The notes under the pieces: generated by a model
The model's database searches: none
Seen by the model: the letters and a program-made list of their open reading frames with translations, nothing else
Told to the model about the DNA's origin: nothing
Shown: in pieces, positions 1 through 50,973 of the stretch
Layout of the letters: the number at the start of each line of letters is the position of its first letter
Numbering within the stretch: position 1 is the stretch's first letter
Assembly (NCBI GenBank): GCA_030691385.1
Contig: JAUYEI010000014.1
Location: 8,908 to 72,907 of the forward strand
DNA from: Azonexus sp.
GTDB taxonomy: Bacteria > Pseudomonadota > Gammaproteobacteria > Burkholderiales > Rhodocyclaceae
Length of the DNA: 64,000 bases
Reading direction: 5' to 3'
Position numbers and translations under genes: made by a program

Positions 1-2
1 CT

Positions 3-1166
3 TGCCAGCAGTGTGGTAACAAATGCCAGCACGAGCGAGTCTGCTATCAACGCAGGGGTGACTAGAACTCCCGCAGTAAAACCAGTGTCCATACCAGGAG
101 GAGGGGGCATGGGGATTCCAATCGCAGAAAGGATTACGCTAAGGATGTATCCAGTGGTGGCGCCCAACAAGCCTCCAATAACTCCGACAGTTACTCCTTC
201 GATAATAAATAGTCGAAGCACGCCATCTGTTCTGGTCCCCATTGCCAGCATTGTTCCGATTTCGGTTGTTCGCTCCAGGACACTCATTGTCTGGGTGTTG
301 GAAATTGTCAGAATGATGATCAACCCAATAATGAGCTTCATGAACTCGGTTTGTTTGCTGAACAGGCTAACTGTTTTGTTATAGAAATCGGCCATGTCGA
401 ACCACGGAACAACTTGGAAATGATCGGCAGATAGGTTGTTTTTGAGATCATCGACGGTATGCTTGGTGTTGCTTGTCTCTTTCAATAACAGTACCCAGGA
501 TGTTGCTCCAGTTACCCGCATCAGTTTCCGTGACGGTGTAAGCGGTAGTCTAAGTGCAGTATCGTCAAATTCCTTTGAGGCAGTGAAGAACGTTCCAACG
601 ACAGTAACTTCTACGGCGCTGGGAGCACCTTCTGCCGTCGTGGCAAATAAAACAACGTTGTCGCCGATGGTGACCCCAAGAGTTTTTGCCAAGCCCTCAC
701 CCAAAATCACGGTTCGTTCGTTGATTCCCGCCAGGTTGGAACCCTCGCGGATATGGATTTGATCGGATATGCGGGCTTCCTTCTCAGGATCCACGCCTTC
801 ACCGATAAAGATCGCCGTGGTGTCGCCATGGCTGATTAGGCCACTAAAAGCCAATCTTTCTGTCATTGAAACTACTATGGGTCTCTCAGAAATTGTCTTT
901 TGCTCGAGGGAGTTCGCGGGAAGAAGGAAACGGTACGGGTCGGCAATTCCCTTTTCGAGATATCCCGGACGAACAATCTGGATGTGTCCCAGTTGCGACC
1001 GTATGGTTGATTCACGCATGTTTTCGAAAATCCATTCGATAAAACCACCGGCAAGAAGGAAAGCAATTAATCCGGCGGCAACTGTGAGCACTGCCACAGC
1101 CGTTCTACCGCGATGGCGCTGCAGGTTTCTCAGGGCGATCTGAAAGTCAGTTTTTAACTGGAGCAT
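3..1166 (-). CDS. FtsX/LolE/MacB-family ABC transporter permease (partial, runs off left edge; not in ORF track)
   Basis: Manual translation from ATG at 1166: MLQLKTDFQIALRNLQRHRGRTAVAVLTVAAGLIAFLLAGGFIEWIFENMRESTIRSQLGHIQI..., typical 'ALRNL.R...RT' start. Frame is still in hydrophobic TM sequence (ALIADSLVLAFVTTLLA) at the window edge. Confidence 0.85.
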   Translation of the reverse strand, partial: MLQLKTDFQIALRNLQRHRGRTAVAVLTVAAGLIAFLLAGGFIEWIFENMRESTIRSQLGHIQIVRPGYLEKGIADPYRFLLPANSLEQKTISERPIVVSMTERLAFSGLISHGDTTAIFIGEGVDPEKEARISDQIHIREGSNLAGINERTVILGEGLAKTLGVTIGDNVVLFATTAEGAPSAVEVTVVGTFFTASKEFDDTALRLPLTPSRKLMRVTGATSWVLLLKETSNTKHTVDDLKNNLSADHFQVVPWFDMADFYNKTVSLFSKQTEFMKLIIGLIIILTISNTQTMSVLERTTEIGTMLAMGTRTDGVLRLFIIEGVTVGVIGGLLGATTGYILSVILSAIGIPMPPPPGMDTGFTAGVLVTPALIADSLVLAFVTTLLA

Positions 1167-1243
1167 TGGTTTGAATGGCAGTGTGATGTAATGTTGTGCA
1201 GACCATTGTAATACTGATTCCTTAGGACGAAAGGAGGCTGGCA

Positions 1244-2122
1244 ATGTTTGATTACGAAGCTGCGTTTTCCAGGAATATAGGGTGGGTGACTGAGAAAGAA
1301 CAGGCACGATTGCGTGAGTCGTGTGTTGCTATTGGCGGCATGGGCGGTGTAGGAGGCATTCACCTGCTGACCTTGGCGCGGCTAGGTATCGGTCGCTTCA
1401 GAATCTCGGAGTTTGATGAGTTCGAGATAGTCAATTTCAACCGCCAAGTCGGGGCTACGGTCAGTACTATTGGGCGTAAGAAGATTGACGTTCTGAAAGA
1501 GATGGCCTTAGACATTAATCCGGAGATTGAAATTGAACTCTTCCCGAATGGGGTTCAACCAGACAACGTTAGCGTATTTCTCAAGGGTGTTGACCTCTAC
1601 GTTGACGGGTTGGATTTTTTTGCGTTCGGTGCTCGACGTTTGACTTTCTCTGCTTGTGAAGCCAATGGAATTCCAGTTGTCACCGTCGCGCCCTTGGGGC
1701 TTGGTGCAGCAACGCTCGTATTTGCACAAGGTGGAATGTCTTTCGAAGATTATTTCGGCTTTGAGGGATGCGATGAAATGGAGATGGCAATCCGATTTCT
1801 TGTTGGTTTATCGCCCGCAATGCTTCAACGTGGTTACGTTGCCGATATGAGTCGGGTCAACCTGGCCGAACGACGGGGCCCGTCGAGTATTGCCGCCTGT
1901 CAACTATGTGCCGGGGTTGCTGCTGTTGAAACAATGAAGCTACTGCTCGGTCGGGGAGGTGTAAGGCTAGCCCCCTGGGGAAGCCAGTTTGATGCATATC
2001 GCATGCGGTATGTCCGCACCTGGCGTCCTGGTGGGTATCGGAATCCGCTACAGCGCCTGATGCGGAGTTTGGTTCGTCGGCAGTTGGCGCTGATGGCAAG
2101 GAAAACTGACAATGACTCGTGA
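1244..2122 (+). CDS. ThiF/MoeB-family adenylyltransferase (TyzB / OxzB N-domain-like)
   Basis: GGMGGVGG nucleotide-binding loop, EFDEFEIVNFNRQ and GRKKID motifs, no CxxC Zn sites. GGAGG RBS upstream. Confidence 0.85.
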   Translation: MFDYEAAFSRNIGWVTEKEQARLRESCVAIGGMGGVGGIHLLTLARLGIGRFRISEFDEFEIVNFNRQVGATVSTIGRKKIDVLKEMALDINPEIEIELFPNGVQPDNVSVFLKGVDLYVDGLDFFAFGARRLTFSACEANGIPVVTVAPLGLGAATLVFAQGGMSFEDYFGFEGCDEMEMAIRFLVGLSPAMLQRGYVADMSRVNLAERRGPSSIAACQLCAGVAAVETMKLLLGRGGVRLAPWGSQFDAYRMRYVRTWRPGGYRNPLQRLMRSLVRRQLALMARKTDNDS

Positions 2123-3185
2123 CGTGCTGATAAAAATTCTCGACCTGGTTCGTTGGGCGCCGAGTGGTGACAACACGCAGCCGTGGCAATTTGAAATCGT
2201 GGCAGACGATCATATTGCAGTACACGGTTTTGATACCAGGGAGCATGTCCTTTACGATTTTGATGGGCATCCGAGCCAGATGGCTCACGGTGCACTCATT
2301 GAAACATTGCGAATTGCGGCGAGTGGATTTCAGCTTGCGAGCGAGTGGCATGTGCGATCAGGATCTCCAGATAACGCTCCTGTTTATGATGTTCTATTGA
2401 GGAGCGCGCCGGATTTGTTGGCTGATCCGTTGCTGCCGTATATTGAAAAGCGTGTAGTCCAACGTCGTCCCATGCGTATGACACCACTCACTTCGGAACA
2501 GCGTAACAGTCTTTCACTGGCCACCGGCGGCAATTATTCCGTCCAGTTTTTCGAGAAGACGAGTGATCGGATCAAGGTGGCAAGATTGCTTTGGGATAAT
2601 GCATATATTCGTCTGACTTGCCCGGAAGCCTTCCTGGTACATAGGGAGATCATTGAATGGGGGGCGCGCTTTAGTCATGATCGCTTGCCTGAAGAGGCAA
2701 TTGGTGTTGATCCAATGACGGCCAAACTCATGAAGTGGGTGATGCAAAGCTGGGGCAGGGTGGAATTCTTCAATCGCTACCTGATGGGAACGGTTGCGCC
2801 ACGCATCCAGCTTGATTTTGTCCCGGCTATTGCTTGCGCGGGGCATCTGTTGCTTAAGCCGCGTAAACCACTAAATTCTTTGCATGATTACGTTGAGGCC
2901 GGAATGGCGATGCAACGTCTTTGGCTGACGGCTACTTCGCTTGGCTTGCATCTGCAACCAGAGATGACACCCGTGATATTTCGCTGGTATGCCAAGGCTG
3001 GTCGAGAAATATCGGCCCACTCGAAGATAAACAAAAAAGTTGAATTGATGGCTTCACGCTTTGAGCGCTTGGTTGAGGCTTCAAGTGATCAGAGCTTTGC
3101 TTTCTTTTGTCGAATTGGCCAATCGGTTCCCCCGAAATCCCGGTCTTTACGCAAGAGCCTGAGCCAACTGCTCGTTAGTAAATAG
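2112..3185 (+). CDS. Nitroreductase-superfamily protein (TyzC / OxzB C-domain-like)
   Basis: WAPSGDNTQPW N-terminal motif and AGMAMQRLWLTATSLGLHLQP second nitroreductase motif. Overlaps the ThiF gene by 11 nt. Confidence 0.8.
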   Translation: MTRDVLIKILDLVRWAPSGDNTQPWQFEIVADDHIAVHGFDTREHVLYDFDGHPSQMAHGALIETLRIAASGFQLASEWHVRSGSPDNAPVYDVLLRSAPDLLADPLLPYIEKRVVQRRPMRMTPLTSEQRNSLSLATGGNYSVQFFEKTSDRIKVARLLWDNAYIRLTCPEAFLVHREIIEWGARFSHDRLPEEAIGVDPMTAKLMKWVMQSWGRVEFFNRYLMGTVAPRIQLDFVPAIACAGHLLLKPRKPLNSLHDYVEAGMAMQRLWLTATSLGLHLQPEMTPVIFRWYAKAGREISAHSKINKKVELMASRFERLVEASSDQSFAFFCRIGQSVPPKSRSLRKSLSQLLVSK

Positions 3186-3209
3186 GTTTTGCATCATCAA
3201 CAATGACAA

Positions 3210-3240
3210 TAAAAAAGCCGCCCGAAGGCGGCTTTACTTT
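3210..3240 (-). terminator. Intrinsic terminator between converging nitroreductase and PEP-CTERM genes
   Basis: AAAGCCGCC-cgaa-GGCGGCTTT hairpin (3214-3235) with an A-run on the left (U-tail on the minus strand) and a T-rich right side. Confidence 0.8.
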
Positions 3241-3251
3241 TAGAGCAAGTA

Positions 3252-4049
3252 TTATTTGGCAGAACGGCGACGGCGGAGAGCACCAACGCCGAGCAAACCC
3301 AAGCCAACCAGAGCCAGAGAAGCGGGTTCAGGAACAACGGTGACTTGGTTGATGGTCAAGTCAAGTGCAACTTTGCTGCCAGTCGGGTCAATAATGGCCT
3401 GCAATGCGCCAAGATTTCCCCAATCAACCGCGCCGCCAGCGCCACAGGTGACGACAACGCCCGGAAGGCTGAACGTGTTGGTACAGTCAAGGAAGCCCAG
3501 CAGCGGAAGAAGACTTGATACGCCATTCGGAAGTACGGCGGGATTTACTTCGTGAGCGATCAAAGATACCTTGGACCATTGGGTGCTTGAGGTAAAGGCA
3601 CCGAGTTCAAAACCAAAATCGCCATCGGAAAAAATGGTCTTCAGCTCAATAAAAGTTCCGAAAGGATTGAACGATGCACCAAGTCCGAATATCGTCGGAT
3701 CCGAGAAAGACATTGCTGCGGTAGAGCCATCCCAACGAACCAAACCACGGCCGCCAGTCAGCGACTCAGTGCTGAACGACAGCGCGCCACCGGCAACTTG
3801 AATGCTGGCGGAACCACCAGGGTTAAACGGATCTTGATTCAGCACTTCGACACCAATGTCGCGATATCCGCCGATGATATCCGTGCCACCAGTCGCCACT
3901 TGAGAGAACAAAGCGTTACCATCAACGACGGTATCGGTGAGTTTGGCTTGTGAGGTGCTAAACAGGTCGATCGTGCTGATCAACGCTGCGTTTGCAGCGG
4001 AACTGAACGACAGTGCGACTACTGCTGCCGCGATAAGAGTTTTTTTCAT
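3252..4049 (-). CDS. PEP-CTERM sorting domain-containing secreted protein
   Basis: Signal peptide MKKTLIAAAVVALSFSSAANA (ATG 4049, GGAG RBS). C-terminus VPEPASLALVGLGLLGVGALRRRRSAK = PEP motif + TM helix + basic tail. Confidence 0.95.
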   Translation of the reverse strand: MKKTLIAAAVVALSFSSAANAALISTIDLFSTSQAKLTDTVVDGNALFSQVATGGTDIIGGYRDIGVEVLNQDPFNPGGSASIQVAGGALSFSTESLTGGRGLVRWDGSTAAMSFSDPTIFGLGASFNPFGTFIELKTIFSDGDFGFELGAFTSSTQWSKVSLIAHEVNPAVLPNGVSSLLPLLGFLDCTNTFSLPGVVVTCGAGGAVDWGNLGALQAIIDPTGSKVALDLTINQVTVVPEPASLALVGLGLLGVGALRRRRSAK

Positions 4050-4109
4050 GAGGATTCTCCGATGTGTCTGGATGGAAATTACAGTGTTTGAACTTACGCA
4101 GTGATCTAA

Positions 4110-4125
4110 AGCGATATGCGTGCCA
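4110..4125 (-). promoter_or_regulatory. sigma54 (-24/-12) promoter of the PEP-CTERM gene
   Basis: Minus strand TGGCACGCATATCGCT = GG-N10-GC, close to consensus TGGCAC-N5-TTGCW. Confidence 0.75.
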
Positions 4126-4200
4126 GCATGATAAAAACCTTTATTAGTCAGTTGGTAACGTTTTTTTTCTTCCTGCATGAGCGCTATCAAAAACAGCCCG

Positions 4201-4217
4201 TGTAAAACATTCCGACA
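4201..4217. promoter_or_regulatory. Upstream activator site (PEP-box-like, TGT-N11-ACA) for a sigma54 activator
   Basis: TGTAAAACATTCCGACA about 110 bp upstream of the inferred TSS. PEP-CTERM genes are known to carry such boxes with sigma54 sites (PrsR-type activator). Confidence 0.6.
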
Positions 4218-4257
4218 GTATTTTCTTCACCGGGCATTTCTGCGTCGCAAACGAAAC

Positions 4258-4962
4258 TCAAACAGATTTTGCGGCATTCTCTGGAAGCTGAGCGCTTGGC
4301 GCCGTTCTTCCAATCAATTTGGCCGGAATGCCACCCCATATTTCACCCGGGCCTATTTGGGTGCCTTTTGTTACTACAGCTCCGGTGGAAACAATAGCGC
4401 CATCGCCGATCGTCACGCCAGAAAGCACCGTTGCGCCAGCACCTATCGTTACATTGTTCCCCAATTGAATGGGGTAATGCGCCAGCTTTTTTCCCTCGAT
4501 CACGTGTGGAACAAGCAAAGCATACTGGCCAACAATACTATTTCTGCCAATTTCGACAAATTGCGCGTCGAGAATAATGCCTGAGCTATAGGTGTTAGCG
4601 CCAAGTTTTGCGCCCAAGCCCAGATACACCAATCGCATGATGGGCACGGGAACGAAGCCACTCCGCAGAATTGGGTAGAAAAGGATCAGATAAAACAAGA
4701 GGTAAACGTGGTAGACAAACTCCTGTTGAGATTCTTCCGGGATATCTCCGATGCGCAGTGGGAAGAACAACAGAAAGGCCCTGAAAAAAAATAAAGCGAA
4801 GGAGTAGATCAGAAGCCCGGAAAAAAAAACCACGGCTATTTCGTGGTATCCACCCAGCGGAATCAGCCTCGCCAACAGCAAGGCTAGGCCTATCCCCATG
4901 CTAACGGCCAGTGTCAGCAGCAGTGAAAACACAACTATCTGCCAACTGTTAATTTTTCTCAT
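4258..4962 (-). CDS. Membrane-anchored left-handed beta-helix (hexapeptide repeat) acyltransferase
   Basis: Three N-terminal hydrophobic segments, then hexapeptide repeats (IQLGNNVTIGAGATVLSGVTIGDGAIVSTGAVVT) ending in WGGIPAKLI. Confidence 0.8.
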   Translation of the reverse strand: MRKINSWQIVVFSLLLTLAVSMGIGLALLLARLIPLGGYHEIAVVFFSGLLIYSFALFFFRAFLLFFPLRIGDIPEESQQEFVYHVYLLFYLILFYPILRSGFVPVPIMRLVYLGLGAKLGANTYSSGIILDAQFVEIGRNSIVGQYALLVPHVIEGKKLAHYPIQLGNNVTIGAGATVLSGVTIGDGAIVSTGAVVTKGTQIGPGEIWGGIPAKLIGRTAPSAQLPENAAKSV

Positions 4963-5000
4963 CAAATAATCCTTGCACTCAAACGATTTTCAAAGACCCG

Positions 5001-6221
5001 TTATGTGTTGCTGAAGCTGTTTTTATCGTATTCGGCAATTATATGATGAGACAATGGGTGCAAGCCGCCAACCTGTCCTGGATTGCCAGCCAATTCCTCG
5101 GCGCGAGCCGCGTATTTCGGGTCGCCCGTGAGTAATTTGATGGCTTGCCGTAACTGGGTTGGGTGGGCACGGTCGGCACGAATCATTAGCCCGGCCCCAA
5201 AGGTTACGATAGCTTCCATATTGAGAAACTGATCCATGTTTTGGGCAATTCCCAAGACAGGTACTCCGCAGCTTAACGCCTGGTTGGTAGTCGGGCTTCC
5301 GCCGTTACAGATGACCAGGTTTGCGTGCTGGCAAACGACCGATCCTGGCAAGTAGTCGAAAATCTGCGTGGTTGGGCGCTTTGGTTTCAGTTGTAGAGGC
5401 TTTCCTGCCGTCGCTATAACTATCCTGCTTCCGGACTGCTCCAGGATAGGCACGATGCTCTCGATAATTTGTGGATTGCCGGAACTGCCCATGGTGATAT
5501 ATGTCAGTGGTCCGTTGCCTGAGAGGTAGTCCAAGTCCGCATCGAAATCGGGCGACCAGGCGATCGGGCCAATGAAGTCGGCACCTTTATGTGCCGATAC
5601 CTCAGGGAATAATGCTGGGAAGTTGGCAAACAATCGCAGGTCGGCGTCGGTGTAGCAGCGACGCAGGTCATAACCCAGCGAGGGTTGACCGAATTTTTTC
5701 CGTAGCCGTTCAAGTGGCAAGGCGTGCAGGTGGAATGCGAAGGGGGCTATTCGGCGAAAAATGAATTCGGCCAAATGGATTGGCGCGTAGCGGGTGAATT
5801 TAAAAACAGGCAGTGGTGGGCGTAGTGGTCTTTCCGGGCTCCAGTATGCATCGCAGATAGCGATGTAGGGGATTGACCGCAGACGAGCGCTTACTGACAG
5901 CGAGAGTCGAAAGTCGCCGATGACGACGTCAGGCTTTATTTGATCGATTAGGGAGAGATCTTCGTCCACATAACGGCAGAGCGTTGAGAAGTCATATAAG
6001 GGGGAGCCATGTGCCAGTTTTTGGGCAAATATCTTTGCGTCCTGACATTCGAGTCCGAGAACCGGGAAGGGCAGTCCTGCCGTGAGTTTTGAGAATGCTT
6101 CGGGGCGGCAAAGGGTGACATCAAACTGAGTTGCATCCAATTCTTTGGCCAGCATCAAGGGCCGTGCAACGTGGGCAAGGGTGGCTCCTTCGGCAAAGAA
6201 AAGCACTTTTAGCTTGTTCAA
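5001..6221 (-). CDS. GT1/MGT-like glycosyltransferase (GT-B fold); start approximate
   Basis: N-terminal FFAEGATLAHVARP, C-terminal YITMGSSG and ICNGGSPTT...GVPVLGIAQNMDQ motifs. TTG 6221 chosen to avoid overlap with the upstream gene. Confidence 0.8.
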   Translation of the reverse strand: MNKLKVLFFAEGATLAHVARPLMLAKELDATQFDVTLCRPEAFSKLTAGLPFPVLGLECQDAKIFAQKLAHGSPLYDFSTLCRYVDEDLSLIDQIKPDVVIGDFRLSLSVSARLRSIPYIAICDAYWSPERPLRPPLPVFKFTRYAPIHLAEFIFRRIAPFAFHLHALPLERLRKKFGQPSLGYDLRRCYTDADLRLFANFPALFPEVSAHKGADFIGPIAWSPDFDADLDYLSGNGPLTYITMGSSGNPQIIESIVPILEQSGSRIVIATAGKPLQLKPKRPTTQIFDYLPGSVVCQHANLVICNGGSPTTNQALSCGVPVLGIAQNMDQFLNMEAIVTFGAGLMIRADRAHPTQLRQAIKLLTGDPKYAARAEELAGNPGQVGGLHPLSHHIIAEYDKNSFSNT

Positions 6222-6270
6222 TGGGATACCCGTGACCTGTTTTGGGGGCGGTGAGCACCCATAAGCCAAG

Positions 6271-7608
6271 TTAAAAACTGTAGCGGACCTCTGAATAGAC
6301 GCGATCCTGCTGGTCATATCTTCCAAACAGGCCAGTTGGAGGCCCCTTGAAGATATCAGTGCCAATCAACAGGCGCCAATTGCGTTCAAAGTTCCAGGTC
6401 AAACGTGGGCGCAGTAGCCAATCATTCCGGTTCAGGCTGGAAATGAAAATGGCTTGGGCTTCCCAGTTGTTGATGAATTTACTGTTGAATAGAAGGCTGT
6501 AGCCGTTTTCTTCCTTGTCCGGAATCTGGGTGGCGTTGTAGTTGGAATAACGACGCTGGAATAGCTGAACATTGAAACGACTTTCAGCTGGAAGGGTGAA
6601 ATCGAGGCCGACGGCCCAGTCGAGTGTATTTTGTCGAACGACACCATCACTGTCGGCAAGGTCCAGTACGCTGAAGCTGCGGCCTGTCGTATATACGCCT
6701 TCGGCCTTCAAGACCACGTCTCCGAAGTCCTTGGACAGCGTGCTCCCGTATTGATGGATACGGTCGTGGCGCGCTTGATAGACGACTGTCGGGCCATCGA
6801 ATTGGCGGTAGAAGGTTGGGCTGATATCTGTGCTGCGGTAGTAGAAGCCTGAAATGTCCCAGCCATTTTTCAGGGTTGAGAGGCGTAGACCGTAGTTCAT
6901 GTTGTCGGCGTTACGCTCCGGTCTTGTTTCCGGGAGGTAGCGCACGTTGGGGGCTGCGGGCATTGGATAAAATCCCGAACCGGGTTTGCCGATGTTGTCG
7001 TAGGTGGCGACTGGAATCCATAGCAATTCGGCGTGGAAGTCGTTGGCAAAGTATTCAGCGCGGGCGGCCCATTGTGGAATGCGCATCTGGTCGAATTCGG
7101 GGAGAACGAATTCTCGGAGATCGCGGGCGGAGACGACATCGGCGAAGAACAGGCCGACCATTTCACCCCAGACGACGTGCTGTTTGCCGAAACGGAAGTC
7201 CCAGTTGCCAGTGCTGTAGTCAAGGTAGTTTTCGCGAAGTTCCACGTTGTAGCGTTGATTGCGTTCGACATCGGCAGGGTAGTAGTCGTTGATGCTGTAG
7301 GCCGCGTCGTAGCCCAAGCGTGCGCCCAACTTCCATTTGAGTCCTTCGCCCAGTTTGCCGGAGCTGCCGAGTTCAGCACGTGTGCGAAGTTTCGACCAGT
7401 GTTCTGGATTGCCAGTCGTCCGAGCGGCTTCAAACTGAAGAAAACCTTTAATTCCGGGGGAGGTGTCCTTGGCAGGCGCGGATACCGTTGGCAGGTCGTC
7501 GCCGAAAAGTGCATCGCGGCTCAATAAATTGTCGGCGGCGTTTGCCCCGAGTGCCAAGTAGCTGGCCGCTATGATGGTCAGGCGGTGGACGGTTTTTTGT
7601 GCAGTCAC
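6271..7608 (-). CDS. Outer-membrane beta-barrel protein (DUF1302-like)
   Basis: Signal peptide after GTG 7608 (AGGA RBS), LRENYLDY...RFGKQHVVWG motif, alternating beta-strand pattern, C-terminal YSF. Confidence 0.7.
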   Translation of the reverse strand: MTAQKTVHRLTIIAASYLALGANAADNLLSRDALFGDDLPTVSAPAKDTSPGIKGFLQFEAARTTGNPEHWSKLRTRAELGSSGKLGEGLKWKLGARLGYDAAYSINDYYPADVERNQRYNVELRENYLDYSTGNWDFRFGKQHVVWGEMVGLFFADVVSARDLREFVLPEFDQMRIPQWAARAEYFANDFHAELLWIPVATYDNIGKPGSGFYPMPAAPNVRYLPETRPERNADNMNYGLRLSTLKNGWDISGFYYRSTDISPTFYRQFDGPTVVYQARHDRIHQYGSTLSKDFGDVVLKAEGVYTTGRSFSVLDLADSDGVVRQNTLDWAVGLDFTLPAESRFNVQLFQRRYSNYNATQIPDKEENGYSLLFNSKFINNWEAQAIFISSLNRNDWLLRPRLTWNFERNWRLLIGTDIFKGPPTGLFGRYDQQDRVYSEVRYSF

Positions 7609-7636
7609 GGGGTATTCCTGTCTTGCGGTAAGGTAT

Positions 7637-8386
7637 TTATTCGTCGTCGGATTCGGGCAGTGCGCGAACACGCGCCAGGTTCCAGGTTTTGTCGGTTTCG
7701 TTGCGCACACCGAAGGCGGTGATGCAGCCATCTTCCATCTGGACCAGACGGTCAGCACGATCAATGACTTTCTGGTCGTGCGTCGAGAATATGAATGTGG
7801 TTTTCAGGTGGCGGTTGATCTTCTTCATCAGGCTGAGGATTTCGCGGCCGGTTGCCTTGTCGAGGTTGGCGGTTGGCTCATCGGCCAGGACGATGCTGGG
7901 CTTGATGGCCAGGGCGCGGGCAATGGCGACACGTTGGCGTTGTCCGCCGCTTAGCTGATTGGGGCGGTGGTTGGCAAATTGGCTGAGACCAACGATATCC
8001 AGGAAGTAGTCGACCCGCATTTTGCGTTCTTCGGCGGAAATATCGGTGCGACGGAGCAGGGGGTATTCGACGTTTTCCGCAGCAGAAAGAACTGGGAGCA
8101 GATTGAAGGTCTGAAAGATGAAGCCGATTGAGCGAGAGCGCAGATCGGCTAGTTCGTTGGCAGATTTTTCCGAGACGTCTTCATCGTTGATAAATATCTT
8201 GCCGCGAGTCGGTTTGTCGATGCAACCGATCAGGTTGAGCAGGGTGGTTTTGCCACTGCCGGATGGGCCGGAGATGGCGAGAAAGACGCCTGCATCAATG
8301 GACCATGTAATATCATTCAAGGCGTGGACGGTCTGTTCGCCGAGCTGGTAATCCTTGAAAACGTGTTCGATTCGGACAACGCTCAT
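7637..8386 (-). CDS. LolD/MacB-family ABC transporter ATP-binding protein
   Basis: GPSGSGKTT Walker A, LSGGQRQRVAIARAL signature, LADEPTANLD Walker B, STHD switch. Confidence 0.92.
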   Translation of the reverse strand: MSVVRIEHVFKDYQLGEQTVHALNDITWSIDAGVFLAISGPSGSGKTTLLNLIGCIDKPTRGKIFINDEDVSEKSANELADLRSRSIGFIFQTFNLLPVLSAAENVEYPLLRRTDISAEERKMRVDYFLDIVGLSQFANHRPNQLSGGQRQRVAIARALAIKPSIVLADEPTANLDKATGREILSLMKKINRHLKTTFIFSTHDQKVIDRADRLVQMEDGCITAFGVRNETDKTWNLARVRALPESDDE

Positions 8387-8440
8387 GACCGGTTTCTGCC
8401 GTCAGTATTTAGACCATCAGGATTGTGCGGGAGAGTATTC

Positions 8441-9235
8441 ATGGCAAGTAATAACTGCATTCGGAATGGCCGGTGGTGCGTTGCGCTGACGTGTGGCATT
8501 TTTCTCTTGCTCCAGTCGCTGACTGTTGCAGCGCAAGGATCAACTGTTGCGCCGACCGATGATGCGATTGCCCGCAGTATAGTTGAAAAGGCAGACAAGG
8601 TTCGCTTTCCGGCCGAAGGCTTTCAGGTTGACATTGTAATAAATTCCCTGCGGCCGGACAAAGAGGCCGATACCCGAAAATACCGTGTTCTTTCAAAGGG
8701 AAATGAAAACACGGTCGTCATGGTTACCGAACCGGCAGCGGAGCGTGGTCAGATCATTCTCATGAAAGGGCGCGATCTGTGGGTCTTCATGCCGGAGGTA
8801 TCTCAGCCGGTCCGGATTTCGCTGGCGCAGCGCCTGACGGGGCAGGTGGCCAACGGCGATCTGGCGCGTGCCAATTTCGCCGGTGACTACAATCCGAAAA
8901 TCATCGGTACCGAAAAAATCGGCAACGATATTTTTCAAATTCTTGAATTAATTGCCGTTGACCGTAGCGTTACCTATCAGCGCGTCGTTTATTGGGTCAA
9001 TGAAAAGTCCGGCTGGCCTTTGAAGGCCGAGTTCTACTCGCTGTCCAACCGCCTCATGAAGAAATGCAGCTACGAGAATTTCCAGACGTTGGCCGGACGG
9101 GTTCGACCAACCCGGCTGGTCATGGAGGATGCACTGCGCAATGGGGAAAAATCCGTTCTGGATTACTCGGATATGAAATTACGCGATTTGCCGGACAAGG
9201 TCTTTACCAAGGAATACCTGAAGAAGCTGGACTGA
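8441..9235 (+). CDS. Outer-membrane lipoprotein-sorting (LolA-like) periplasmic protein
   Basis: Signal peptide, then G..ILMKGRDLWVFMP...PVRISLAQRLTGQVANGDL motif typical of LolA-like sorting proteins. ATG 8441 with GGGAG RBS. Confidence 0.75.
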   Translation: MASNNCIRNGRWCVALTCGIFLLLQSLTVAAQGSTVAPTDDAIARSIVEKADKVRFPAEGFQVDIVINSLRPDKEADTRKYRVLSKGNENTVVMVTEPAAERGQIILMKGRDLWVFMPEVSQPVRISLAQRLTGQVANGDLARANFAGDYNPKIIGTEKIGNDIFQILELIAVDRSVTYQRVVYWVNEKSGWPLKAEFYSLSNRLMKKCSYENFQTLAGRVRPTRLVMEDALRNGEKSVLDYSDMKLRDLPDKVFTKEYLKKLD

Positions 9236-9239
9236 GCGA

Positions 9240-9611
9240 TTAGTCGAAGATCAGTGCTGCAGCCACCTTCCTGCCTTCGGCGGCAAGGATGTTGTAGGTC
9301 CGGCAGGCGGCTTTCAGGTCCATGATTTCCAGCCCGATGCCGGCCGGGGCGAAGGGGCGGAGCAGGGCGCCGGGTGGGAAGCGCAGGCTTTTTCCGGTGC
9401 CGAGCAGGACGATTTCGGTACCTAAACCCAGCAGAATTTGCATGTCTGCTTCGCTCAAAGTGTTGACGGTCGCAGTGGTCCAGGCAGGAATGATCGACTC
9501 GGGTAGCAGAATCAGGTTTTTCTCGTGTTTTTCGTGGTTGACCACAGCATAGTCGTCGCCATAGGCGGTGAATAAATTAAGTCCTGCGGTATTCGAGATG
9601 TGTAGTTTCAC
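9240..9611 (-). CDS. Mth938-like (DUF498) protein
   Basis: VLLGTGKSLRFP and LEIMDLKAACRTYNILAAEGRKVAAAL motifs. Real start GTG 9611; the track ORF is extended through antisense alaA. Confidence 0.88.
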   Translation of the reverse strand: MKLHISNTAGLNLFTAYGDDYAVVNHEKHEKNLILLPESIIPAWTTATVNTLSEADMQILLGLGTEIVLLGTGKSLRFPPGALLRPFAPAGIGLEIMDLKAACRTYNILAAEGRKVAAALIFD

Positions 9612-9719
9612 TGCGCGATCATTCCGAAAAGCCCGCCAAAATTGCGGTGCACCATACGATAAAGTAGGATTATACCTTTGGCCCTCACGGGCCATACGCC
9701 GCCAAGCCGGAAGATTCCA

Positions 9720-10949
9720 ATGAAACACGTCAAGAAATCCACCAAACTCGCCAACGTCTGTTACGACATTCGCGGCCCTGTGCTGCAAAAAGCCAAGCAG
9801 ATGGAGGAGGAGGGCCACAAGATCATCAAGCTGAACATCGGCAATCTGGCCGCGTTCGGTTTTGATTCGCCCGAGGAAATCCAGCAGGACATGATCCGCA
9901 ACCTGCCCAATGCGGCCGGCTATACGGACTCCAAGGGTATCTTCGCGGCGCGCAAGGCGATCATGCACTACACCCAGCAAAAAGGTATCAAGGGTGTGAC
10001 GCTGGAAGATATCTACGTCGGCAACGGTGTGTCCGAGTTGATCGTCATGGCCATGAACGCCTTGCTTGATGCGGGCGATGAGGTGCTCGTCCCGGCGCCG
10101 GATTACCCGCTGTGGACGGCCGCGATCAGCCTGTCCGGCGGGACGCCCAAGCACTACCTGTGCAATGAGGAAAAGGGCTGGTTGCCGGATCTCGACGATA
10201 TCCGCAGCAAGATCAATGCACACACCAAGGCGATCGTGCTGATCAACCCGAACAATCCGACCGGCGCCCTGTATCCGGATGACCTGCTGTGCGAGATCAT
10301 CGACATCGCCCGTCAGCATCACCTGACCATTTATGCCGACGAGGTATACGACAAGGTGTTGTATGACGCCGCCAAGCACACGTCGATTGCCTCGCTGGCC
10401 GAGGATGTGCTGATGATCACCTTCAATGGTCTGTCGAAGAATTACCGCTCCTGTGGTTATCGCGCCGGCTGGATGATCGTTTCCGGCGACAAGCGACATG
10501 CCAAGGACTACATCGAGGGCCTCGACATGCTGGCCTCGATGCGTCTATGCGCCAATGCACCGGGACAGCATGGCATCCAGACAGCCCTGGGCGGTTACCA
10601 GAGTATCGACGACCTGATCAAGGAAGGCGGCCGCCTGCGTCGCCAGCGCGATATCGCACATGAATTGATCACGGCCATTCCTGGCGTTAGCTGCGTGAAA
10701 CCGAAGGCGGCGCTCTACATGTTCCCCAAGCTGGATCCCAAGGTCTATCCCATCAAGAACGACCAGCAGTTCATTTCCGAATTGCTGCAGGAGGAAAAGG
10801 TCCTGCTCGTTCAAGGGACGGGCTTCAACTGGCCGCACCCGGATCACTTCCGCCTGGTATTTCTGCCGCACGAGGATGATCTGCGGGAGGCCATCGGTCG
10901 CATCGCCCGTTTCCTCGAAAATTACCGTAAACGCCACGGTACGAACTAG
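9720..10949 (+). CDS. alaA: PLP-dependent aminotransferase AlaA
   Basis: YDIRGPVL...KLNIGN, INPNNPTG, FNGLSKNYRSCGYRAGW (PLP Lys). Usual position upstream of hom. Confidence 0.9.
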   Translation: MKHVKKSTKLANVCYDIRGPVLQKAKQMEEEGHKIIKLNIGNLAAFGFDSPEEIQQDMIRNLPNAAGYTDSKGIFAARKAIMHYTQQKGIKGVTLEDIYVGNGVSELIVMAMNALLDAGDEVLVPAPDYPLWTAAISLSGGTPKHYLCNEEKGWLPDLDDIRSKINAHTKAIVLINPNNPTGALYPDDLLCEIIDIARQHHLTIYADEVYDKVLYDAAKHTSIASLAEDVLMITFNGLSKNYRSCGYRAGWMIVSGDKRHAKDYIEGLDMLASMRLCANAPGQHGIQTALGGYQSIDDLIKEGGRLRRQRDIAHELITAIPGVSCVKPKAALYMFPKLDPKVYPIKNDQQFISELLQEEKVLLVQGTGFNWPHPDHFRLVFLPHEDDLREAIGRIARFLENYRKRHGTN

Positions 10950-12372: not shown

Positions 12373-12409
12373 AACCAGAAACGGGAGTTTCAAGCTCCCG
12401 TTTCTGGTT
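12373..12409. terminator. Bidirectional terminator hairpin between hom and the TIGR03790-like gene
   Basis: Perfect 15-bp stem AACCAGAAACGGGAG / CTCCCGTTTCTGGTT, overlapping the stop of the minus-strand gene. Confidence 0.8.
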
Positions 12410-13649
12410 AACGCACCAGGCGAAGATAGGCCTTGGCGCTTGGGGGAACTGTGATGCGCACAGAGTTTCTCCCGGCCACGACAGGTAGACCGCGGGTGGT
12501 CGGCTGAAACGGCCCCATGACCGAATCCGCTTGTTCGACCCGCCAGACGGCTTTTTTTGGCGAGATCAGCTTGAATCGAAAAATTTCATCGCCGGCTTTC
12601 GTCAGTGTCGGTGCAAACGGGCGGGCCAGCGGCTCGCCAATGAAAAGGCCCTCACCGGGCCAGGCCACGCTTTTCCAGTAGGCCTCGATGGCCGTTGCGC
12701 CTGACAGATAGTGAAACATGGCCACGGCAGGCATCGGAAACTTCTGCAGGTGATTGCAGGGTTCGGTGACCGTGCCGTAACTTGCCGTTGCACCAGCCTC
12801 CAGCCAGCGCAGGCTGCTCATTTGCTTCGAGTCGGTCAGTTGGCCGCCGAATGAGGTCAGGTGGTCGGCTAGCGCACCCGGCATGAATTTGAGCGTACCA
12901 AGATTCGGTACCTGAGCCAGCCCGGTGAAATAAAACAACACATCCTGGCGCCCCGTGATCGAGTCTGCCTCGATTTCTTCGATGGGGAACATGGCGCCGA
13001 CTACGCTTTTGGTCATGCCGAATAGCTTGGCTCGGACGCTGCGCGTCTTGTCGGACGTATTGAGCAAATATCCGGTGCCATCGGGGAAGCTCTGATCCGC
13101 CTCGACGCCGCGATCAATCAGCGCCTTGACGTCGGCGAAATTCTGGCCGGCCAGCATCATGGCCGGGCGAATCTGGAAATCGTTGAAGGGGTAGGTGCTG
13201 GCCGTGTCGAAATATCGGCTGACGCTACTTGGGCCGCATTTCGTCGAGCAATATTTTTCGTCGTATCCGAAGGCCAGGGCCGAGGTCATCGACATGCAGC
13301 CAACCTGATAGGGCTGAGTCCAGGCTGCCGCATAGGCTTGAATGTGCCTCGGGGTGAGGCGGTCGATTTCGGCCTTGAGTGGCTCGAATTCCTGTGGGCT
13401 CAGTGTTGTTTTTCCGGCGGGAAAGCGCAGACGAATGAGGTTTTGTTCAGGTAGCTGGCGCATCCGCTGGTAATAGGTACCGGTCTCGCGGGAGAGTGGG
13501 TCATCGTCATTGATCAGCAGCGCCAACTCATCGGCAGAAATGCCGGTTCTCGGCAACTGGATATTGGGGCCTGCGACGGCATGCATCGCCCCGAGCGGGA
13601 TGCTCAAGGACAGAATGCGCAGGAAGACGGGTAGATGCTTGGCGGGCAT
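12408..13649 (-). CDS. TIGR03790-family protein (exosortase-associated, secreted)
   Basis: Signal peptide. Motifs SMTSALAFG, ALIDRGVEAD, GALADHLTSFGG, AGATASYGTVTEP, AEAYWKSV-like and FIGEPLARPF match the family as recalled. Confidence 0.75.
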   Translation of the reverse strand: MPAKHLPVFLRILSLSIPLGAMHAVAGPNIQLPRTGISADELALLINDDDPLSRETGTYYQRMRQLPEQNLIRLRFPAGKTTLSPQEFEPLKAEIDRLTPRHIQAYAAAWTQPYQVGCMSMTSALAFGYDEKYCSTKCGPSSVSRYFDTASTYPFNDFQIRPAMMLAGQNFADVKALIDRGVEADQSFPDGTGYLLNTSDKTRSVRAKLFGMTKSVVGAMFPIEEIEADSITGRQDVLFYFTGLAQVPNLGTLKFMPGALADHLTSFGGQLTDSKQMSSLRWLEAGATASYGTVTEPCNHLQKFPMPAVAMFHYLSGATAIEAYWKSVAWPGEGLFIGEPLARPFAPTLTKAGDEIFRFKLISPKKAVWRVEQADSVMGPFQPTTRGLPVVAGRNSVRITVPPSAKAYLRLVR

Positions 13650-13732
13650 GGCGATTCGCTTGTTCAACAGTAAGCTGATTGTCGCGCATAATCACGGTCT
13701 TGAAATCCATTGATCATCGTTCTTCCCGGATC

Positions 13733-44762: not shown

Positions 44763-45392
44763 CTAGAAGCTCAGACTGCCGAGCGGACGGTGCAGCAGCA
44801 CCGCCGGCGCATCCACCCGGGGGCAGGTGCGAACGGTACCAATCTGCGAAAACCCGAATTCCCGGCGGTAGTAGGCCGCATGACGCGGATTGACTTCGAT
44901 GACCGCATCGGTCACGCCAAAAACTGCCCGGGCGTATTGATAACTTGAGCGGAAAAGTGATTTCAGCAATTCGGGATCATGGGCATCGACATCCACCGCC
45001 AGCCTTGTTACTTCGCAGAGAACGCGGGACGGCTGGCGCAGCCCGGCCAGTTCCTCGGCGTAGAGATTGTCGGCGAGCAGGCCGGCGCTGGAATCGCGCG
45101 AAGCGGTCAGCGTCGCCACCAGTTCGCCCTCCAGCCAGGCGCCCAGCGTCGCGTGATTCGGATCTTCGATCAGTTGTCGCGGTGGCGAAATCCGGTAGCC
45201 GCGCCAGGCGTACATGCGGCGAACCAGGGCGCTGCAGGCACGGTGCTGGTGGTAGCTCACGGCTGGGGCAACCACCAGTTCCGGTTGCTCAAAACCCCTG
45301 CTGGAGCCGAGCGAACCCGGCCGCAAGGCAGCTAGCATTAAGCCGGGCCGGAGCGTCGAACTTGAGGGTATGACGTTTTGCATAGTCTGCAT
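44763..45392 (-). CDS. FeeM-type N-acyl amino acid synthase (GNAT-like)
   Basis: RRMYAWRGY, GLLADNLY, LCEVTRLAV, VIEVNPRHAAYY...GF, CPRVDAPAVLL match the FeeM/NAS catalytic domain as recalled. ATG at 45392 or 45383. Confidence 0.75.
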   Translation of the reverse strand: MQTMQNVIPSSSTLRPGLMLAALRPGSLGSSRGFEQPELVVAPAVSYHQHRACSALVRRMYAWRGYRISPPRQLIEDPNHATLGAWLEGELVATLTASRDSSAGLLADNLYAEELAGLRQPSRVLCEVTRLAVDVDAHDPELLKSLFRSSYQYARAVFGVTDAVIEVNPRHAAYYRREFGFSQIGTVRTCPRVDAPAVLLHRPLGSLSF

Positions 45393-50837: not shown

Positions 50838-50864
50838 AAAAAGCCACCTTCGGGTGGCTTTTTT
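50838..50864 (+). terminator. Intrinsic terminator of the tRNA operon
   Basis: AAAAAGCCACC-ttcg-GGTGGCTTTTTT. Confidence 0.88.
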
Positions 50865-50973
50865 GTTTTGGTGCGCAGTTTCAAGGTTAAATGCGGAAAA
50901 GTTAGAGTTTTCTTGTCTTTCGATGGTACGGATGCTAACTTTTACGTGTCTGAAACACGCGAAAGTTATAAAA

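What the first reader, a model, noticed from the sequence alone, without database searches (positions are those of the whole stretch)
1244..3185. Split ThiF + nitroreductase pair: candidate oxazolone (tyrazolone-type) synthetase
Seen: 11-nt overlap (translational coupling), ThiF lacking the Zn-binding CxxC motifs of MoeB/ThiF, and no sulfur-carrier (ThiS/MoaD) gene nearby. Established: the OxzB ThiF-nitroreductase fusion (Pseudoalteromonas) and the split TyzB/TyzC pair (M. tuberculosis) cyclise and desaturate N-acyl amino acids into oxazolones. Inference: this is a split OxzB/TyzBC system in a betaproteobacterial PEP-CTERM context. Oxazolones are activated acyl donors, which could link to protein or lipid acylation. 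No adjacent N-acyltransferase is visible in the window.
Basis: partly seen in the sequence, partly recalled or inferred. Interest (0 to 1): 0.75.

Follow-up and report, generated by a model that had tools for sequence, protein, structure and literature searches.

The report
Split acyl-oxazolone synthetase in exosortase island
These two overlapping genes are the separated halves of an already known enzyme type that turns fatty-acylated amino acids into oxazolone or dehydro-amino-acid lipids. Here they sit inside a floc/biofilm (PEP-CTERM) polysaccharide island beside a lipid-export system, so this is a new example of a known pathway.

Summary
ORF 1244-2122 (292 aa, ThiF-like) and ORF 2112-3185 (357 aa, two-lobed nitroreductase-like flavin oxidase, FDO) overlap by 11 nt. 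The ThiF lacks both Zn-binding CxxC motifs that this genome's own MoeB paralogues keep, and no ThiS/MoaD-like gene lies nearby.

The ThiF scores 470 bits on NCBIfam NF006077, then matches the ThiF-FDO and NAS-ThiF-FDO fusion families; MoeB, ThiF and TcdA models score 79 bits or less. Of its 150 nearest cluster representatives, 82 are ThiF/FDO fusions, and several are fused to FeeM-type N-acyl amino acid synthases (NAS). The FDO matches the Rv1355c (TrzS) family model and folds like Acg (2YMV, TM 0.71/0.77).

In 201 genomes of the order, 44 carry this ThiF:
- 42 of them also carry a FeeM NAS, against 17 of the other 157.
- In 23 the NAS lies within 500 bp of the ThiF.
- 41 carry an exosortase.

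I could not obtain TyzB, TyzC or OxzB sequences, so no direct phylogeny was made. Split betaproteobacterial forms are already in the literature, and this scan has noted the same module in at least 25 other genomes. Verdict: new member of a known kind, moderate interest.

The parts
1..1166 (-). FtsX/MacB-type permease (first of two; continues left of the window), divergent from the ThiF gene; probable first gene of the leftward EPS operon
   Evidence: MacB_PCD + FtsX domains and a weak LolC/E-family match. A second permease and Poly_export/Wzz genes follow with 4-nt overlaps in L002. The likely start is the ATG on the minus strand at 1166, read from the sequence. A permease pair occurs next to the ThiF in 63 of 80 related loci.
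1167..1243 (.). 77-bp divergent intergenic region (shared promoter region, inferred) with the ThiF Shine-Dalgarno AAGGAGG at 1229-1235
   Evidence: Sequence reading. No sigma-70 consensus match was found here, so the promoter type is unknown.
1244..2122 (+). ThiF-like ATP-dependent cyclase (TyzB / OxzB N-domain type), 292 aa
   Evidence: NF006077 470 bits. GxGGxGG, Asp58, Asn66-Arg67-Gln68 and Asp121/Asp124 are at least 97% conserved in 80 orthologues. No Zn-site CxxC. Nearest relatives are ThiF-FDO fusions.
2112..3185 (+). Acg-like two-lobed flavin-dependent oxidase (FDO; TyzC / OxzB C-domain type), 357 aa
   Evidence: NF005901 (Rv1355c family) 113 bits over the FDO half; Acg family 102 bits. 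AlphaFold model pLDDT 93.9; best PDB match 2YMV, TM 0.71/0.77. The N-terminal motif RWAPSGDNTQPW is the same as in the fused proteins.
3214..3235 (.). GC-rich hairpin flanked by A/T runs: bidirectional terminator between the FDO gene and the convergent PEP-CTERM gene
   Evidence: Terminator scan, 9-bp stem with 6 GC pairs; sequence.
3252..4190 (-). PEP-CTERM (exosortase-sorted) protein
   Evidence: PF07589 / TIGR02595 at residues 286-309.
4258..4965 (-). Hexapeptide-repeat acetyl/acyltransferase
   Evidence: Hexapep domains; present in 9 of 80 related loci.
5001..6365 (-). GT1 (macrolide/MGT-type) glycosyltransferase; start codon uncertain
   Evidence: EryCIII-like_C, UDPGT, TIGR01426; present in 20 of 80 related loci.
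6271..7764 (-). DUF1302 outer-membrane protein; start codon uncertain
   Evidence: PF06980; 26 of 80 loci.
7637..8386 (-). LolD/DevA-like ABC ATPase
   Evidence: TIGR02211 224 bits, below its cut-off; 35 of 80 loci.
8324..9235 (+). LolA-like carrier protein
   Evidence: PF17131 164 bits; 25 of 80 loci.
44763..45386 (-). FeeM-type N-acyl amino acid synthase, the probable supplier of the substrate (OxzA/TyzA role), unlinked from the pair
   Evidence: PF21926 164 bits. Matches the N-terminal domain of the triple-fusion family NF011425. The same type lies directly upstream of the ThiF in L075 and L090 and inside EPS loci in L012, L060, L065, L081, L082 and L088.

Best explanation
The two genes encode a split oxazolone synthetase of the OxzB / TyzB+TyzC / TrzS type.

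Inferred mechanism, taken from the characterised relatives. A FeeM-type N-acyl amino acid synthase makes an N-acyl amino acid; in this genome the candidates are at window 44763-45386 or on contig C38. The ThiF-like protein adenylates the carboxylate with ATP, and the amide oxygen attacks to close a 5(4H)-oxazolone ring. The Acg-like flavin oxidase removes 2H across C-alpha/C-beta using O2. The result is an unsaturated acyl-oxazolone, which may stay as such or open to an N-acyl dehydro-amino acid.

Shown here: family membership of both halves, intact ATP-binding motifs, the Acg-like fold, operon structure, and strong fusion, neighbourhood and co-occurrence links to FeeM synthases and to exosortase genomes.

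Inferred only: the amino acid and acyl chain used, the end product, and that the neighbouring MacB/LolCDE-like permeases, LolD-like ATPase, LolA-like protein and DUF1302 barrel export the lipid to the outer membrane. A further role in tailoring for the adjacent GT1 and hexapeptide acyltransferase, as part of the PEP-CTERM/EPS floc system, is also inferred.
For: - HMM families. ThiF: NF006077 470 bits (cut-off 266), NF011424 306, NF011425 269, against 79 or less for ThiF/MoeB/TcdA. FDO: NF005901 'Rv1355c family' 113 bits over the FDO half; Acg family 102 bits.
- Whole-library search with domain mapping. Of the 150 nearest representatives (41-61% identity), 76 are ThiF-FDO and 6 are FDO-ThiF fusions. 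Others are Acetyltransf_5+ThiF (named 'N-acyl amino acid synthase of PEP-CTERM/exosortase system' by its source), FeeM+ThiF+nitroreductase, PilZ+FeeM+ThiF and methyltransferase+ThiF+FeeM.
- Tree. The window ThiF nests among fused forms; its sister is a 724-aa fusion (support 0.82). The genome's own MoeB paralogues are 2.6 times further away than the median ingroup member.
- ATP-site residues, including the Asp aligned with MoeB's TDN Asp (cf. the cyclase-dead TrzS D217A, PMC12856293), are conserved.
- FDO model has pLDDT 93.9; best match is 2YMV.
- In 80 related loci, a co-directional FDO follows the ThiF in 55, and most of the rest carry a divergent FDO paralogue there.
- In 201 genomes of the order, 44 have the ThiF (333 bits or more; the next best match is 135 or less). 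Of these, 42 have a FeeM NAS against 17 of 157 without the ThiF. The NAS is within 500 bp in 23 and within about 10 kb in 12 more. 41 of 44 have an exosortase against 45 of 157.
- Literature: OxzAB (bioRxiv 10.1101/2020.06.11.147165), TyzACB (PMC10404671), TrzAS (PMC12856293), split clusters in Massilia and Thalassotalea (PMC12479983).
Against: - No direct sequence comparison or phylogeny with OxzB, TyzB or TyzC was possible, because their sequences could not be obtained with these tools.
- The ThiF matches the TrzS family model only weakly (59 bits), consistent with TrzS sitting in a different subcluster (PMC12856293).
- No NAS is adjacent. The nearest is 43 kb away among housekeeping genes (EttA), so the substrate source is inferred from co-occurrence. 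Related genomes are not independent samples.
- About 10 of 80 related loci have the ThiF without any FDO neighbour.
- PMC12479983 notes that no oxazolone has been seen in producers of kyonggic or thalassotalic acids or stieleriacines, so the ring may not be the end product.
- The export and tailoring roles of the neighbours rest on gene order alone.
Confidence: 0.8

Rival explanations
1. Same enzymes and substrate, but the oxazolone is only a transient intermediate. The physiological product is a ring-opened N-acyl 2,3-dehydro-amino acid (kyonggic-acid, thalassotalic-acid or stieleriacine type), possibly glycosylated and acetylated by the neighbouring GT1 and hexapeptide transferase.
For: PMC12479983: homologous split ThiF + nitroreductase genes accompany NAS genes in producers of N-acyl dehydrotyrosines, including the betaproteobacterium Massilia kyonggiensis, and no oxazolones were seen there. 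A GT1 of the small-molecule (MGT) type and an acetyltransferase lie next to the pair. The GT1 recurs in 20 of 80 loci.
Against: In the three biochemically studied systems (OxzAB, TyzACB, TrzAS) the oxazolone is the isolated product. An ATP-spending cyclase would be wasteful if the ring were merely hydrolysed. The GT1 is present in only a quarter of related loci.
Confidence: 0.3
2. The ThiF-like protein is an E1-like activator of a peptide or protein C-terminus (a RiPP of MccB/PaaA type, or the PEP-CTERM protein itself). The nitroreductase-like protein is then an azoline/peptide dehydrogenase like McbC.
For: ThiF-like enzymes do act on peptide C-termini: PaaA and MccB are among the solved-structure hits. 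A PEP-CTERM protein gene is convergent with the pair.
Against: No YcaO gene and no precursor-like or Gly-Gly-ending small ORF lies nearby. PaaA and MccB match only the Rossmann core at 30-51 bits. The clade is fused to and co-occurs with FeeM N-acyl amino acid synthases, not peptide precursors. The FDO is Acg/TrzS-like, not McbC-like.
Confidence: 0.05
3. An ordinary cofactor or tRNA ThiF: a sulfur-carrier adenylyltransferase (MoeB/ThiF) or the ct6A dehydratase TcdA, lying next to an unrelated nitroreductase by chance.
For: The best solved-structure sequence match is TcdA (59 bits, residues 22-151). Public sources often name relatives 'molybdopterin/thiamine biosynthesis adenylyltransferase'.
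Against: MoeB, ThiF and TcdA models score 52-79 bits against cut-offs of 266-450. The Zn-site cysteines are absent while two real MoeB-type paralogues exist elsewhere in the genome. No ThiS/MoaD lies nearby. ThiF-FDO pairing or fusion is conserved in most relatives. The location is a low-GC EPS island.
Confidence: 0.02

Closest known systems
TyzB (Rv2338c, 'MoeW') + TyzC (Rv2337c) with TyzA (Rv2336) of Mycobacterium tuberculosis: C12:0-tyrazolone biosynthesis (PMC10404671)
   Same: Split architecture: a stand-alone ThiF-like cyclase of about 300 aa and a stand-alone Acg-like FDO of about 360 aa in one operon. The paper places TyzC's subcluster (FDO-A23) partly in Betaproteobacteria, with an adjacent ThiF in over 50% of members.
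   Different: In M. tuberculosis the N-acyltransferase TyzA is adjacent and divergent, and the context is cysK/cysE/mmpL9. Here the NAS is FeeM-type, 43 kb away, and the context is a PEP-CTERM/EPS island with a Lol-like exporter. Direct identity to TyzB/TyzC was not measured.
OxzA/OxzB oxazolone synthetase of Pseudoalteromonas rubra (bioRxiv 10.1101/2020.06.11.147165; review PMC12596934)
   Same: Same two catalytic modules. The window ThiF's nearest relatives are mostly ThiF-FDO fusions of about 650-690 aa with the OxzB architecture, at 45-61% identity. The junction motif RWAPSGDN is shared.
   Different: OxzB is one polypeptide and oxzA is adjacent. Here there are two genes overlapping by 11 nt and the NAS is unlinked.
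TrzS (Rv1355c) + TrzA: N-acyl tryptazolone synthesis (PMC12856293)
   Same: The FDO matches the Rv1355c-family model across the whole FDO half (113 bits). An Asp aligned with the MoeB active-site Asp, the position of TrzS Asp217, is conserved. The same structural relative, Acg 2YMV, is found.
   Different: The ThiF half matches the TrzS model only weakly (59 bits). TrzS lies in a different similarity subcluster from TyzB/OxzB. It is fused and actinobacterial.
NAS-ThiF-nitroreductase clusters of Massilia kyonggiensis (kyonggic acids), Thalassotalea sp. PP2-459 (thalassotalic acids) and Stieleria spp. (stieleriacines) (PMC12479983, PMC7293339)
   Same: Split ThiF + nitroreductase genes with short or overlapping junctions. 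One producer is a betaproteobacterium. In Stieleria a PEP-CTERM gene and EPS genes lie in or beside the cluster. A planctomycete-type ThiF (P0241) is 48% identical to the window protein.
   Different: Those clusters include the NAS, and assignment of their ThiF/NTR genes is by comparative genomics only. Their known products are dehydro-acids, not oxazolones.
PEP-CTERM/exosortase-associated N-acyl amino acid synthases (Craig, Cherry and Brady 2011, J Bacteriol 193:5707, cited in PMC7293339; NCBIfam TIGR03694)
   Same: The same ecological and genomic link between N-acyl amino acid synthesis and exosortase loci: 41 of 44 ThiF-positive genomes have an exosortase.
   Different: As far as I could check, that work concerned the synthase alone; the paper itself is not held. 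The window's NAS does not reach TIGR03694.

Membership tests
OxzB / TyzB+TyzC / TrzS-type oxazolone synthetase (ThiF-like cyclase + FDO) | ThiF-fold domain with an intact nucleotide-binding and adenylation site (glycine-rich loop, Arg finger, active-site Asp) | tested here: met
   G32xG34G35xG37G38, D58, N66-R67-Q68, K80 and D121/D124 are at least 97% conserved in 80 orthologues and align with the MoeB motifs.
OxzB / TyzB+TyzC / TrzS-type oxazolone synthetase (ThiF-like cyclase + FDO) | The ThiF domain belongs to the sequence cluster that holds OxzB and TyzB, separate from MoeB/ThiF/TcdA | tested here: inconclusive
   Indirect evidence is strong. NF006077 470 bits, then fusion families NF011424/NF011425, against 79 or less for MoeB/ThiF/TcdA. 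82 of 150 nearest representatives are ThiF/FDO fusions. The protein nests among fusions in the tree. However, the named sequences of OxzB and TyzB were not available, so their presence in this cluster rests on PMC12856293 and PMC10404671.
OxzB / TyzB+TyzC / TrzS-type oxazolone synthetase (ThiF-like cyclase + FDO) | An FDO partner of the Acg-like monomeric two-lobed nitroreductase fold, fused or adjacent | tested here: met
   Adjacent with an 11-nt overlap. NF005901 FDO half 113 bits, Acg family 102 bits. Model pLDDT 93.9, 2YMV TM 0.71/0.77, E 7e-14.
OxzB / TyzB+TyzC / TrzS-type oxazolone synthetase (ThiF-like cyclase + FDO) | An amino-acid N-acyltransferase (OxzA/TyzA/TrzA role) encoded next to the pair | tested here: not met
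   No NAS lies within 40 kb. Two FeeM-type NAS genes exist in the genome (window 44763-45386 and contig C38). In the order sample, 42 of 44 ThiF-positive genomes have a FeeM NAS, and in 23 it is within 500 bp. The partner therefore exists but is unlinked here; the same-genus genome G123 has it 39 kb away.
OxzB / TyzB+TyzC / TrzS-type oxazolone synthetase (ThiF-like cyclase + FDO) | ATP- and O2-dependent conversion of an N-acyl amino acid to an unsaturated oxazolone | not testable with these tools
   Needs expression and LC-MS.
MoeB/ThiF sulfur-carrier adenylyltransferases | Tetracysteine Zn site (two CxxC), a ThiS/MoaD partner, and a family HMM score over cut-off | tested here: not met
   Both CxxC motifs are absent, while the genome's paralogues C91 and C59 have them. 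No Gly-Gly-ending small ORF lies nearby. Scores are 52-79 bits against cut-offs of 266-450.
TcdA (tRNA ct6A dehydratase) | Family HMM score over cut-off; full-length similarity | tested here: not met
   NF011696 61.7 bits against a cut-off of 304. The PDB TcdA match covers only residues 22-151.

The most novel reading that the evidence does not exclude
The unsaturated oxazolone (azlactone) is not an end product but a reactive acyl donor. It would be made in the cytoplasm and carried outward by the neighbouring MacB/LolCDE-like permeases, LolD-like ATPase, LolA-like carrier and DUF1302 barrel. At the surface it would covalently lipidate amines on exosortase-processed PEP-CTERM proteins or on deacetylated exopolysaccharide. 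That would supply the long-missing chemical reason why N-acyl amino acid synthases travel with exosortase systems.
Probability: 0.12. Interest if true: 0.85.

Novelty: new member of a known kind. Interest (0 to 1): 0.35.

Why it matters
The chemistry (N-acyl amino acid to acyl-oxazolone or dehydro-amino-acid lipid) was established between 2021 and 2025, so the enzyme assignment itself is routine. Public annotation is misleading, though: sources call these proteins 'molybdopterin/thiamine biosynthesis adenylyltransferase' or 'hypothetical'.

What is useful is the setting. In Rhodocyclaceae, Zoogloeaceae and other Burkholderiales, many of them activated-sludge floc formers such as Accumulibacter, Zoogloea, Dechloromonas and Thauera, the pair sits at the head of the PEP-CTERM exopolysaccharide island. 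It is divergent from a MacB/Lol-like permease pair and beside a PEP-CTERM protein gene.

Its presence also tracks FeeM synthases (42 of 44 against 17 of 157) and exosortases (41 of 44 against 45 of 157). [quoted passage not shown] The tests would be deletion, lipidomics and floc phenotypes.

Tried and rejected
1. Obtaining named TyzB/TyzC/OxzB sequences for a direct phylogeny.
- The supplement of PMC10404671 holds no sequences.
- No solved structure of these enzymes exists.
- The listing of cluster members on 10 representatives gave no organism names.
- A search seeded with the 317-aa, high-GC representative P0241, guessed to be TyzB-like, returned Planctomycetota proteins instead.

2. Craig et al. 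2011 (PMC3187218) is not held, so I could not check whether ThiF/nitroreductase neighbours were noted there.

3. TIGR03694 (exosortase-associated acyltransferase) in the own genome found only an OlsB-like Acetyltransf_5 gene on C106, below cut-off. That was rejected as the partner; the FeeM model found the real candidates.

4. A strict sigma-54 pattern search in window 1-10500 found nothing, and the sigma-70 scan found nothing in the divergent intergenic region. The promoter is unassigned.

5. I considered whether the split is a frameshift artefact. Rejected, because the same overlap recurs in 7 independent assemblies.

6. I considered the RiPP/E1, MoeB and TcdA readings. Rejected as set out under the rival explanations.
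Full report
**Observation**

The window holds two co-directional ORFs at exactly the stated coordinates: 1244-2122 (292 aa) and 2112-3185 (357 aa). They overlap by 11 nt (ATGACTCGTGA), and each start codon is preceded by a purine-rich Shine-Dalgarno-like stretch 8 nt upstream. Pfam assigns the first to ThiF (PF00899, 138 bits) and the second to the nitroreductase family (PF00881, 42 bits).

The split is real. The same -11 nt overlap is found in seven independent related assemblies. Across 54 related loci the estimated ThiF-stop to FDO-start distance ranges from -11 to +53 nt, with a median of 3.

The statement about zinc-site cysteines also holds. The two genuine MoeB-type paralogues of the same genome (contigs C91 and C59, found) each carry two CxxC motifs, and the window protein has no cysteine at either aligned position. 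It does carry a different CxxC, Cys219-x-x-Cys222. This one is invariant in 80 orthologues and sits at the end of a family-specific insert of about 28 residues.

No ORF of 50-130 aa ending in Gly-Gly exists within 22 kb around the pair, so there is no ThiS/MoaD candidate.

**Where it lies**

The window is G000:C108:8908-72907 of a 3.45-Mb, 61% G+C genome. Its closest public relatives are Rhodocyclaceae such as Accumulibacter, Propionivibrio and Dechloromonas.

The pair sits in an island of about 50% G+C that ends near window position 10 kb, where homoserine dehydrogenase and thrC begin.

To the left, on the minus strand and starting 77 bp from the ThiF start codon, run the following genes, several with 4-nt overlaps:
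- two MacB/FtsX-type permeases;
- a Poly_export protein;
- a Wzz/GNVR chain-length protein;
- a ParA-like tyrosine-kinase-type ATPase;
- an AAA ATPase;
- UDP-GlcNAc 2-epimerase;
- a polysaccharide deacetylase.

To the right, after a bidirectional hairpin terminator at 3214-3235, lie these genes:
- a convergent PEP-CTERM protein gene (3252-4190);
- a hexapeptide acyltransferase;
- a GT1 glycosyltransferase of the small-molecule (MGT) type;
- a DUF1302 outer-membrane protein;
- a LolD-like ABC ATPase;
- a LolA-like protein.

The genome has two exosortases on other contigs.

**What the two proteins are**

Against NCBIfam, the ThiF-like protein is a full-length member of NF006077 (PRK08223; 470 bits, cut-off 266). 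Its next best families are NF011424 (a 679-position ThiF-FDO fusion family, 306 bits) and NF011425 (a 989-position family, 269 bits). The N-terminal part of NF011425 matches the window's FeeM-type synthase. All MoeB, ThiF, MoeZ and TcdA models score 79 bits or less, far below their cut-offs.

The second protein matches the FDO half of NF005901, the 'Rv1355c family' (113 bits, model positions 375-718 of 722), and the Acg family (102 bits). Rv1355c is TrzS, shown biochemically to cyclise and desaturate N-acyl tryptophan (PMC12856293).

An exhaustive phmmer search of 1.84 billion cluster representatives gave 421 clusters below E = 1e-30. Of the best 150 (41-61% identity over the whole ThiF domain), 76 are ThiF-FDO fusions and 6 are FDO-ThiF fusions. 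Pfam scans of the others revealed these architectures:
- Acetyltransf_5+ThiF;
- FeeM+ThiF+nitroreductase;
- PilZ+FeeM+ThiF;
- methyltransferase+ThiF+FeeM;
- methyltransferase+ThiF.

One NAS-ThiF fusion is named by its source 'N-acyl amino acid synthase of PEP-CTERM/exosortase system'.

In a FastTree phylogeny of 135 ThiF domains rooted on the genome's own MoeB paralogues, split and fused forms are interleaved. The window protein's sister is a 724-aa fusion (support 0.82). The MoeB outgroups lie at 5.3-5.6 substitutions per site, against a median of 2.0 to the ingroup.

The fused proteins continue after the ThiF domain with ILDLARWAPSGDN. This is the same motif that opens the window's second ORF.

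The nucleotide-binding loop, the Arg finger and the active-site aspartates are conserved. In TrzS, the aspartate aligned to the E. coli ThiF/MoeB active site (D217A) was needed for cyclisation (PMC12856293).

An AlphaFold2 model of the FDO, built from 37 orthologues, has mean pLDDT 93.9 and pTM 0.92. Its best solved-structure match is 2YMV, the M. smegmatis Acg homologue (E 7e-14, TM 0.71/0.77). All other nitroreductases match only one lobe. 2YMV is the same structural reference reported for the TrzS FDO domain, and TyzC is described as Acg-like (PMC12856293, PMC10404671).

**The missing acyltransferase**

Searching the whole genome with the FeeM model (PF21926) found two.

One is inside the window at 44763-45386 (-), 43 kb from the pair. 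It lies next to ettA and other genes unrelated to the island.

The other is on contig C38 and carries a long C-terminal extension.

A third GNAT-type hit, on C106, is a below-cut-off match to TIGR03694 with an Acetyltransf_5 domain of the OlsB type. I did not count it as a candidate.

The window's type is the one found directly upstream of the ThiF in L075 and L090. It is also found inside the EPS loci of L012, L060, L065, L081, L082 and L088.

**Conservation of context**

In 80 related loci, a co-directional FDO follows the ThiF in 55. Most of the remaining 25 carry a divergent FDO paralogue immediately downstream; it is only 23-25% identical, has the motif APSADNSQPW, and is often convergent. 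About ten loci have none.

The two permease genes flank the ThiF in 63 of 80 loci. Poly_export and Wzz genes are present in 34-35, and the LolD-like, LolA-like and DUF1302 genes in 25-35.

In an evenly drawn sample of 201 genomes of the same order, all at least 90% complete, NF006077 splits cleanly. Forty-four genomes score 333 bits or more, and the next best match is 135 or less. About ten of the 44 are fused forms.

Of the 44:
- 42 also have a FeeM synthase, against 17 of the other 157.
- The synthase lies within 500 bp of the ThiF in 23 and within about 10 kb in 12 more.
- 41 have an exosortase, against 45 of 157.
- The same-genus genome G123 has its nearest NAS 39 kb from the ThiF on the same contig, so the unlinked layout is a trait of this genus.

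These genomes are related to one another, so the counts describe an association and are not a statistical test.

**Mechanism**

By analogy with OxzAB, TyzACB and TrzAS, the steps would be as follows:
1. The FeeM synthase N-acylates an amino acid.
2. The ThiF-like enzyme adenylates the carboxylate, and the amide oxygen closes the oxazolone ring.
3. The FDO desaturates C-alpha/C-beta with O2.

The order may be free, as in Tyz, or obligate, as in TrzS (PMC12856293).

Shown here are family membership, intact catalytic motifs, fold, operon structure and the association with synthases. Not shown are the substrate, the product, and whether the ring survives. In producers of kyonggic acids, thalassotalic acids and stieleriacines, only ring-opened dehydro-acids have been seen (PMC12479983).

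I infer from gene order alone that the MacB/Lol-like permeases, ATPase, LolA-like carrier and DUF1302 barrel export the lipid. I infer in the same way that the GT1 and hexapeptide transferase tailor it.

**Comparison with what is known, and novelty**

The enzyme kind is known. Split forms in Betaproteobacteria are already mentioned: the TyzC subcluster FDO-A23 (PMC10404671) and the Massilia kyonggiensis cluster (PMC12479983). The NAS-exosortase link dates from 2011 (cited in PMC7293339). A PEP-CTERM gene inside the stieleriacine cluster has been noted (PMC7293339). A 2013 table of the Rubrivivax gelatinosus biofilm cluster lists two 'UBA/THIF-type' genes between ABC-transporter and polysaccharide-export genes, without comment (PMC3684757).

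In the library searched, I found no paper that interprets the ThiF/FDO pair as part of the PEP-CTERM island.

Earlier notes of this scan describe the same module in at least 25 other genomes, with the same reading. This is therefore a repeat find on other DNA.

I rate it a new member of a known kind, with moderate interest. That interest comes from the conserved placement next to a Lol-like export set and from the testable link to floc formation.

**Limits**

No direct comparison with TyzB, TyzC or OxzB sequences was possible. My attempts are listed under Tried and rejected. Substrate and product are unknown. Start codons of the GT1, DUF1302 and permease genes are approximate.

Noticed in passing
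window 1244-2122 (residues 219-222 of the ThiF-like protein): An invariant Cys-x-x-Cys (ACQLCAG) at the end of a family-specific insert of about 28 aa. It is conserved in 80 orthologues and in fused relatives, and is not the MoeB/ThiF zinc site. It could be a catalytic or redox cysteine pair; its role is unknown.
   Followed up: partly
G000:C38:13823-15133 (-) (locus L006): A second FeeM-type N-acyl amino acid synthase with a C-terminal extension of about 190 aa, next to an indolepyruvate-oxidoreductase-like gene. Orthologues (57-58% identity) lie inside the EPS loci of L060 and L065. A PilZ+FeeM+ThiF fusion (P0242) exists among relatives, which hints at c-di-GMP control.
   Followed up: partly
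L019, L021, L026, L030, L031, L033, L034, L037, L044, L046 (about 10.85-12.0 kb in each locus): In these relatives the co-directional FDO is replaced by a convergent FDO paralogue of about 340-370 aa that is only 23-25% identical (motif APSADNSQPW), directly after the ThiF gene.
   Followed up: partly
L071, L077, L084, L086 (Zoogloea): Here the ThiF orthologue has no FDO neighbour and is followed by a His-rich cation-diffusion-facilitator-like gene. This may be a second, relocated ThiF copy.
   Followed up: no
window 1-10000: G+C is about 50% here against 61% for the genome. The EPS/PEP-CTERM island, including the ThiF-FDO pair, has a distinct composition, which suggests horizontal acquisition.
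   Followed up: partly
window 12408-14806: A TIGR03790-family protein (264 bits) lies divergent from a rhomboid-family intramembrane protease that has a weak rhombosortase match.
   Followed up: no
window 50854-52818 (+): A 654-aa ORF with a HipA-like C-terminal kinase domain, a toxin-antitoxin-type kinase.
   Followed up: no
window 9240-10499 (-): A 419-aa ORF with only a C-terminal DUF498 domain, at the right edge of the low-GC island.
   Followed up: no
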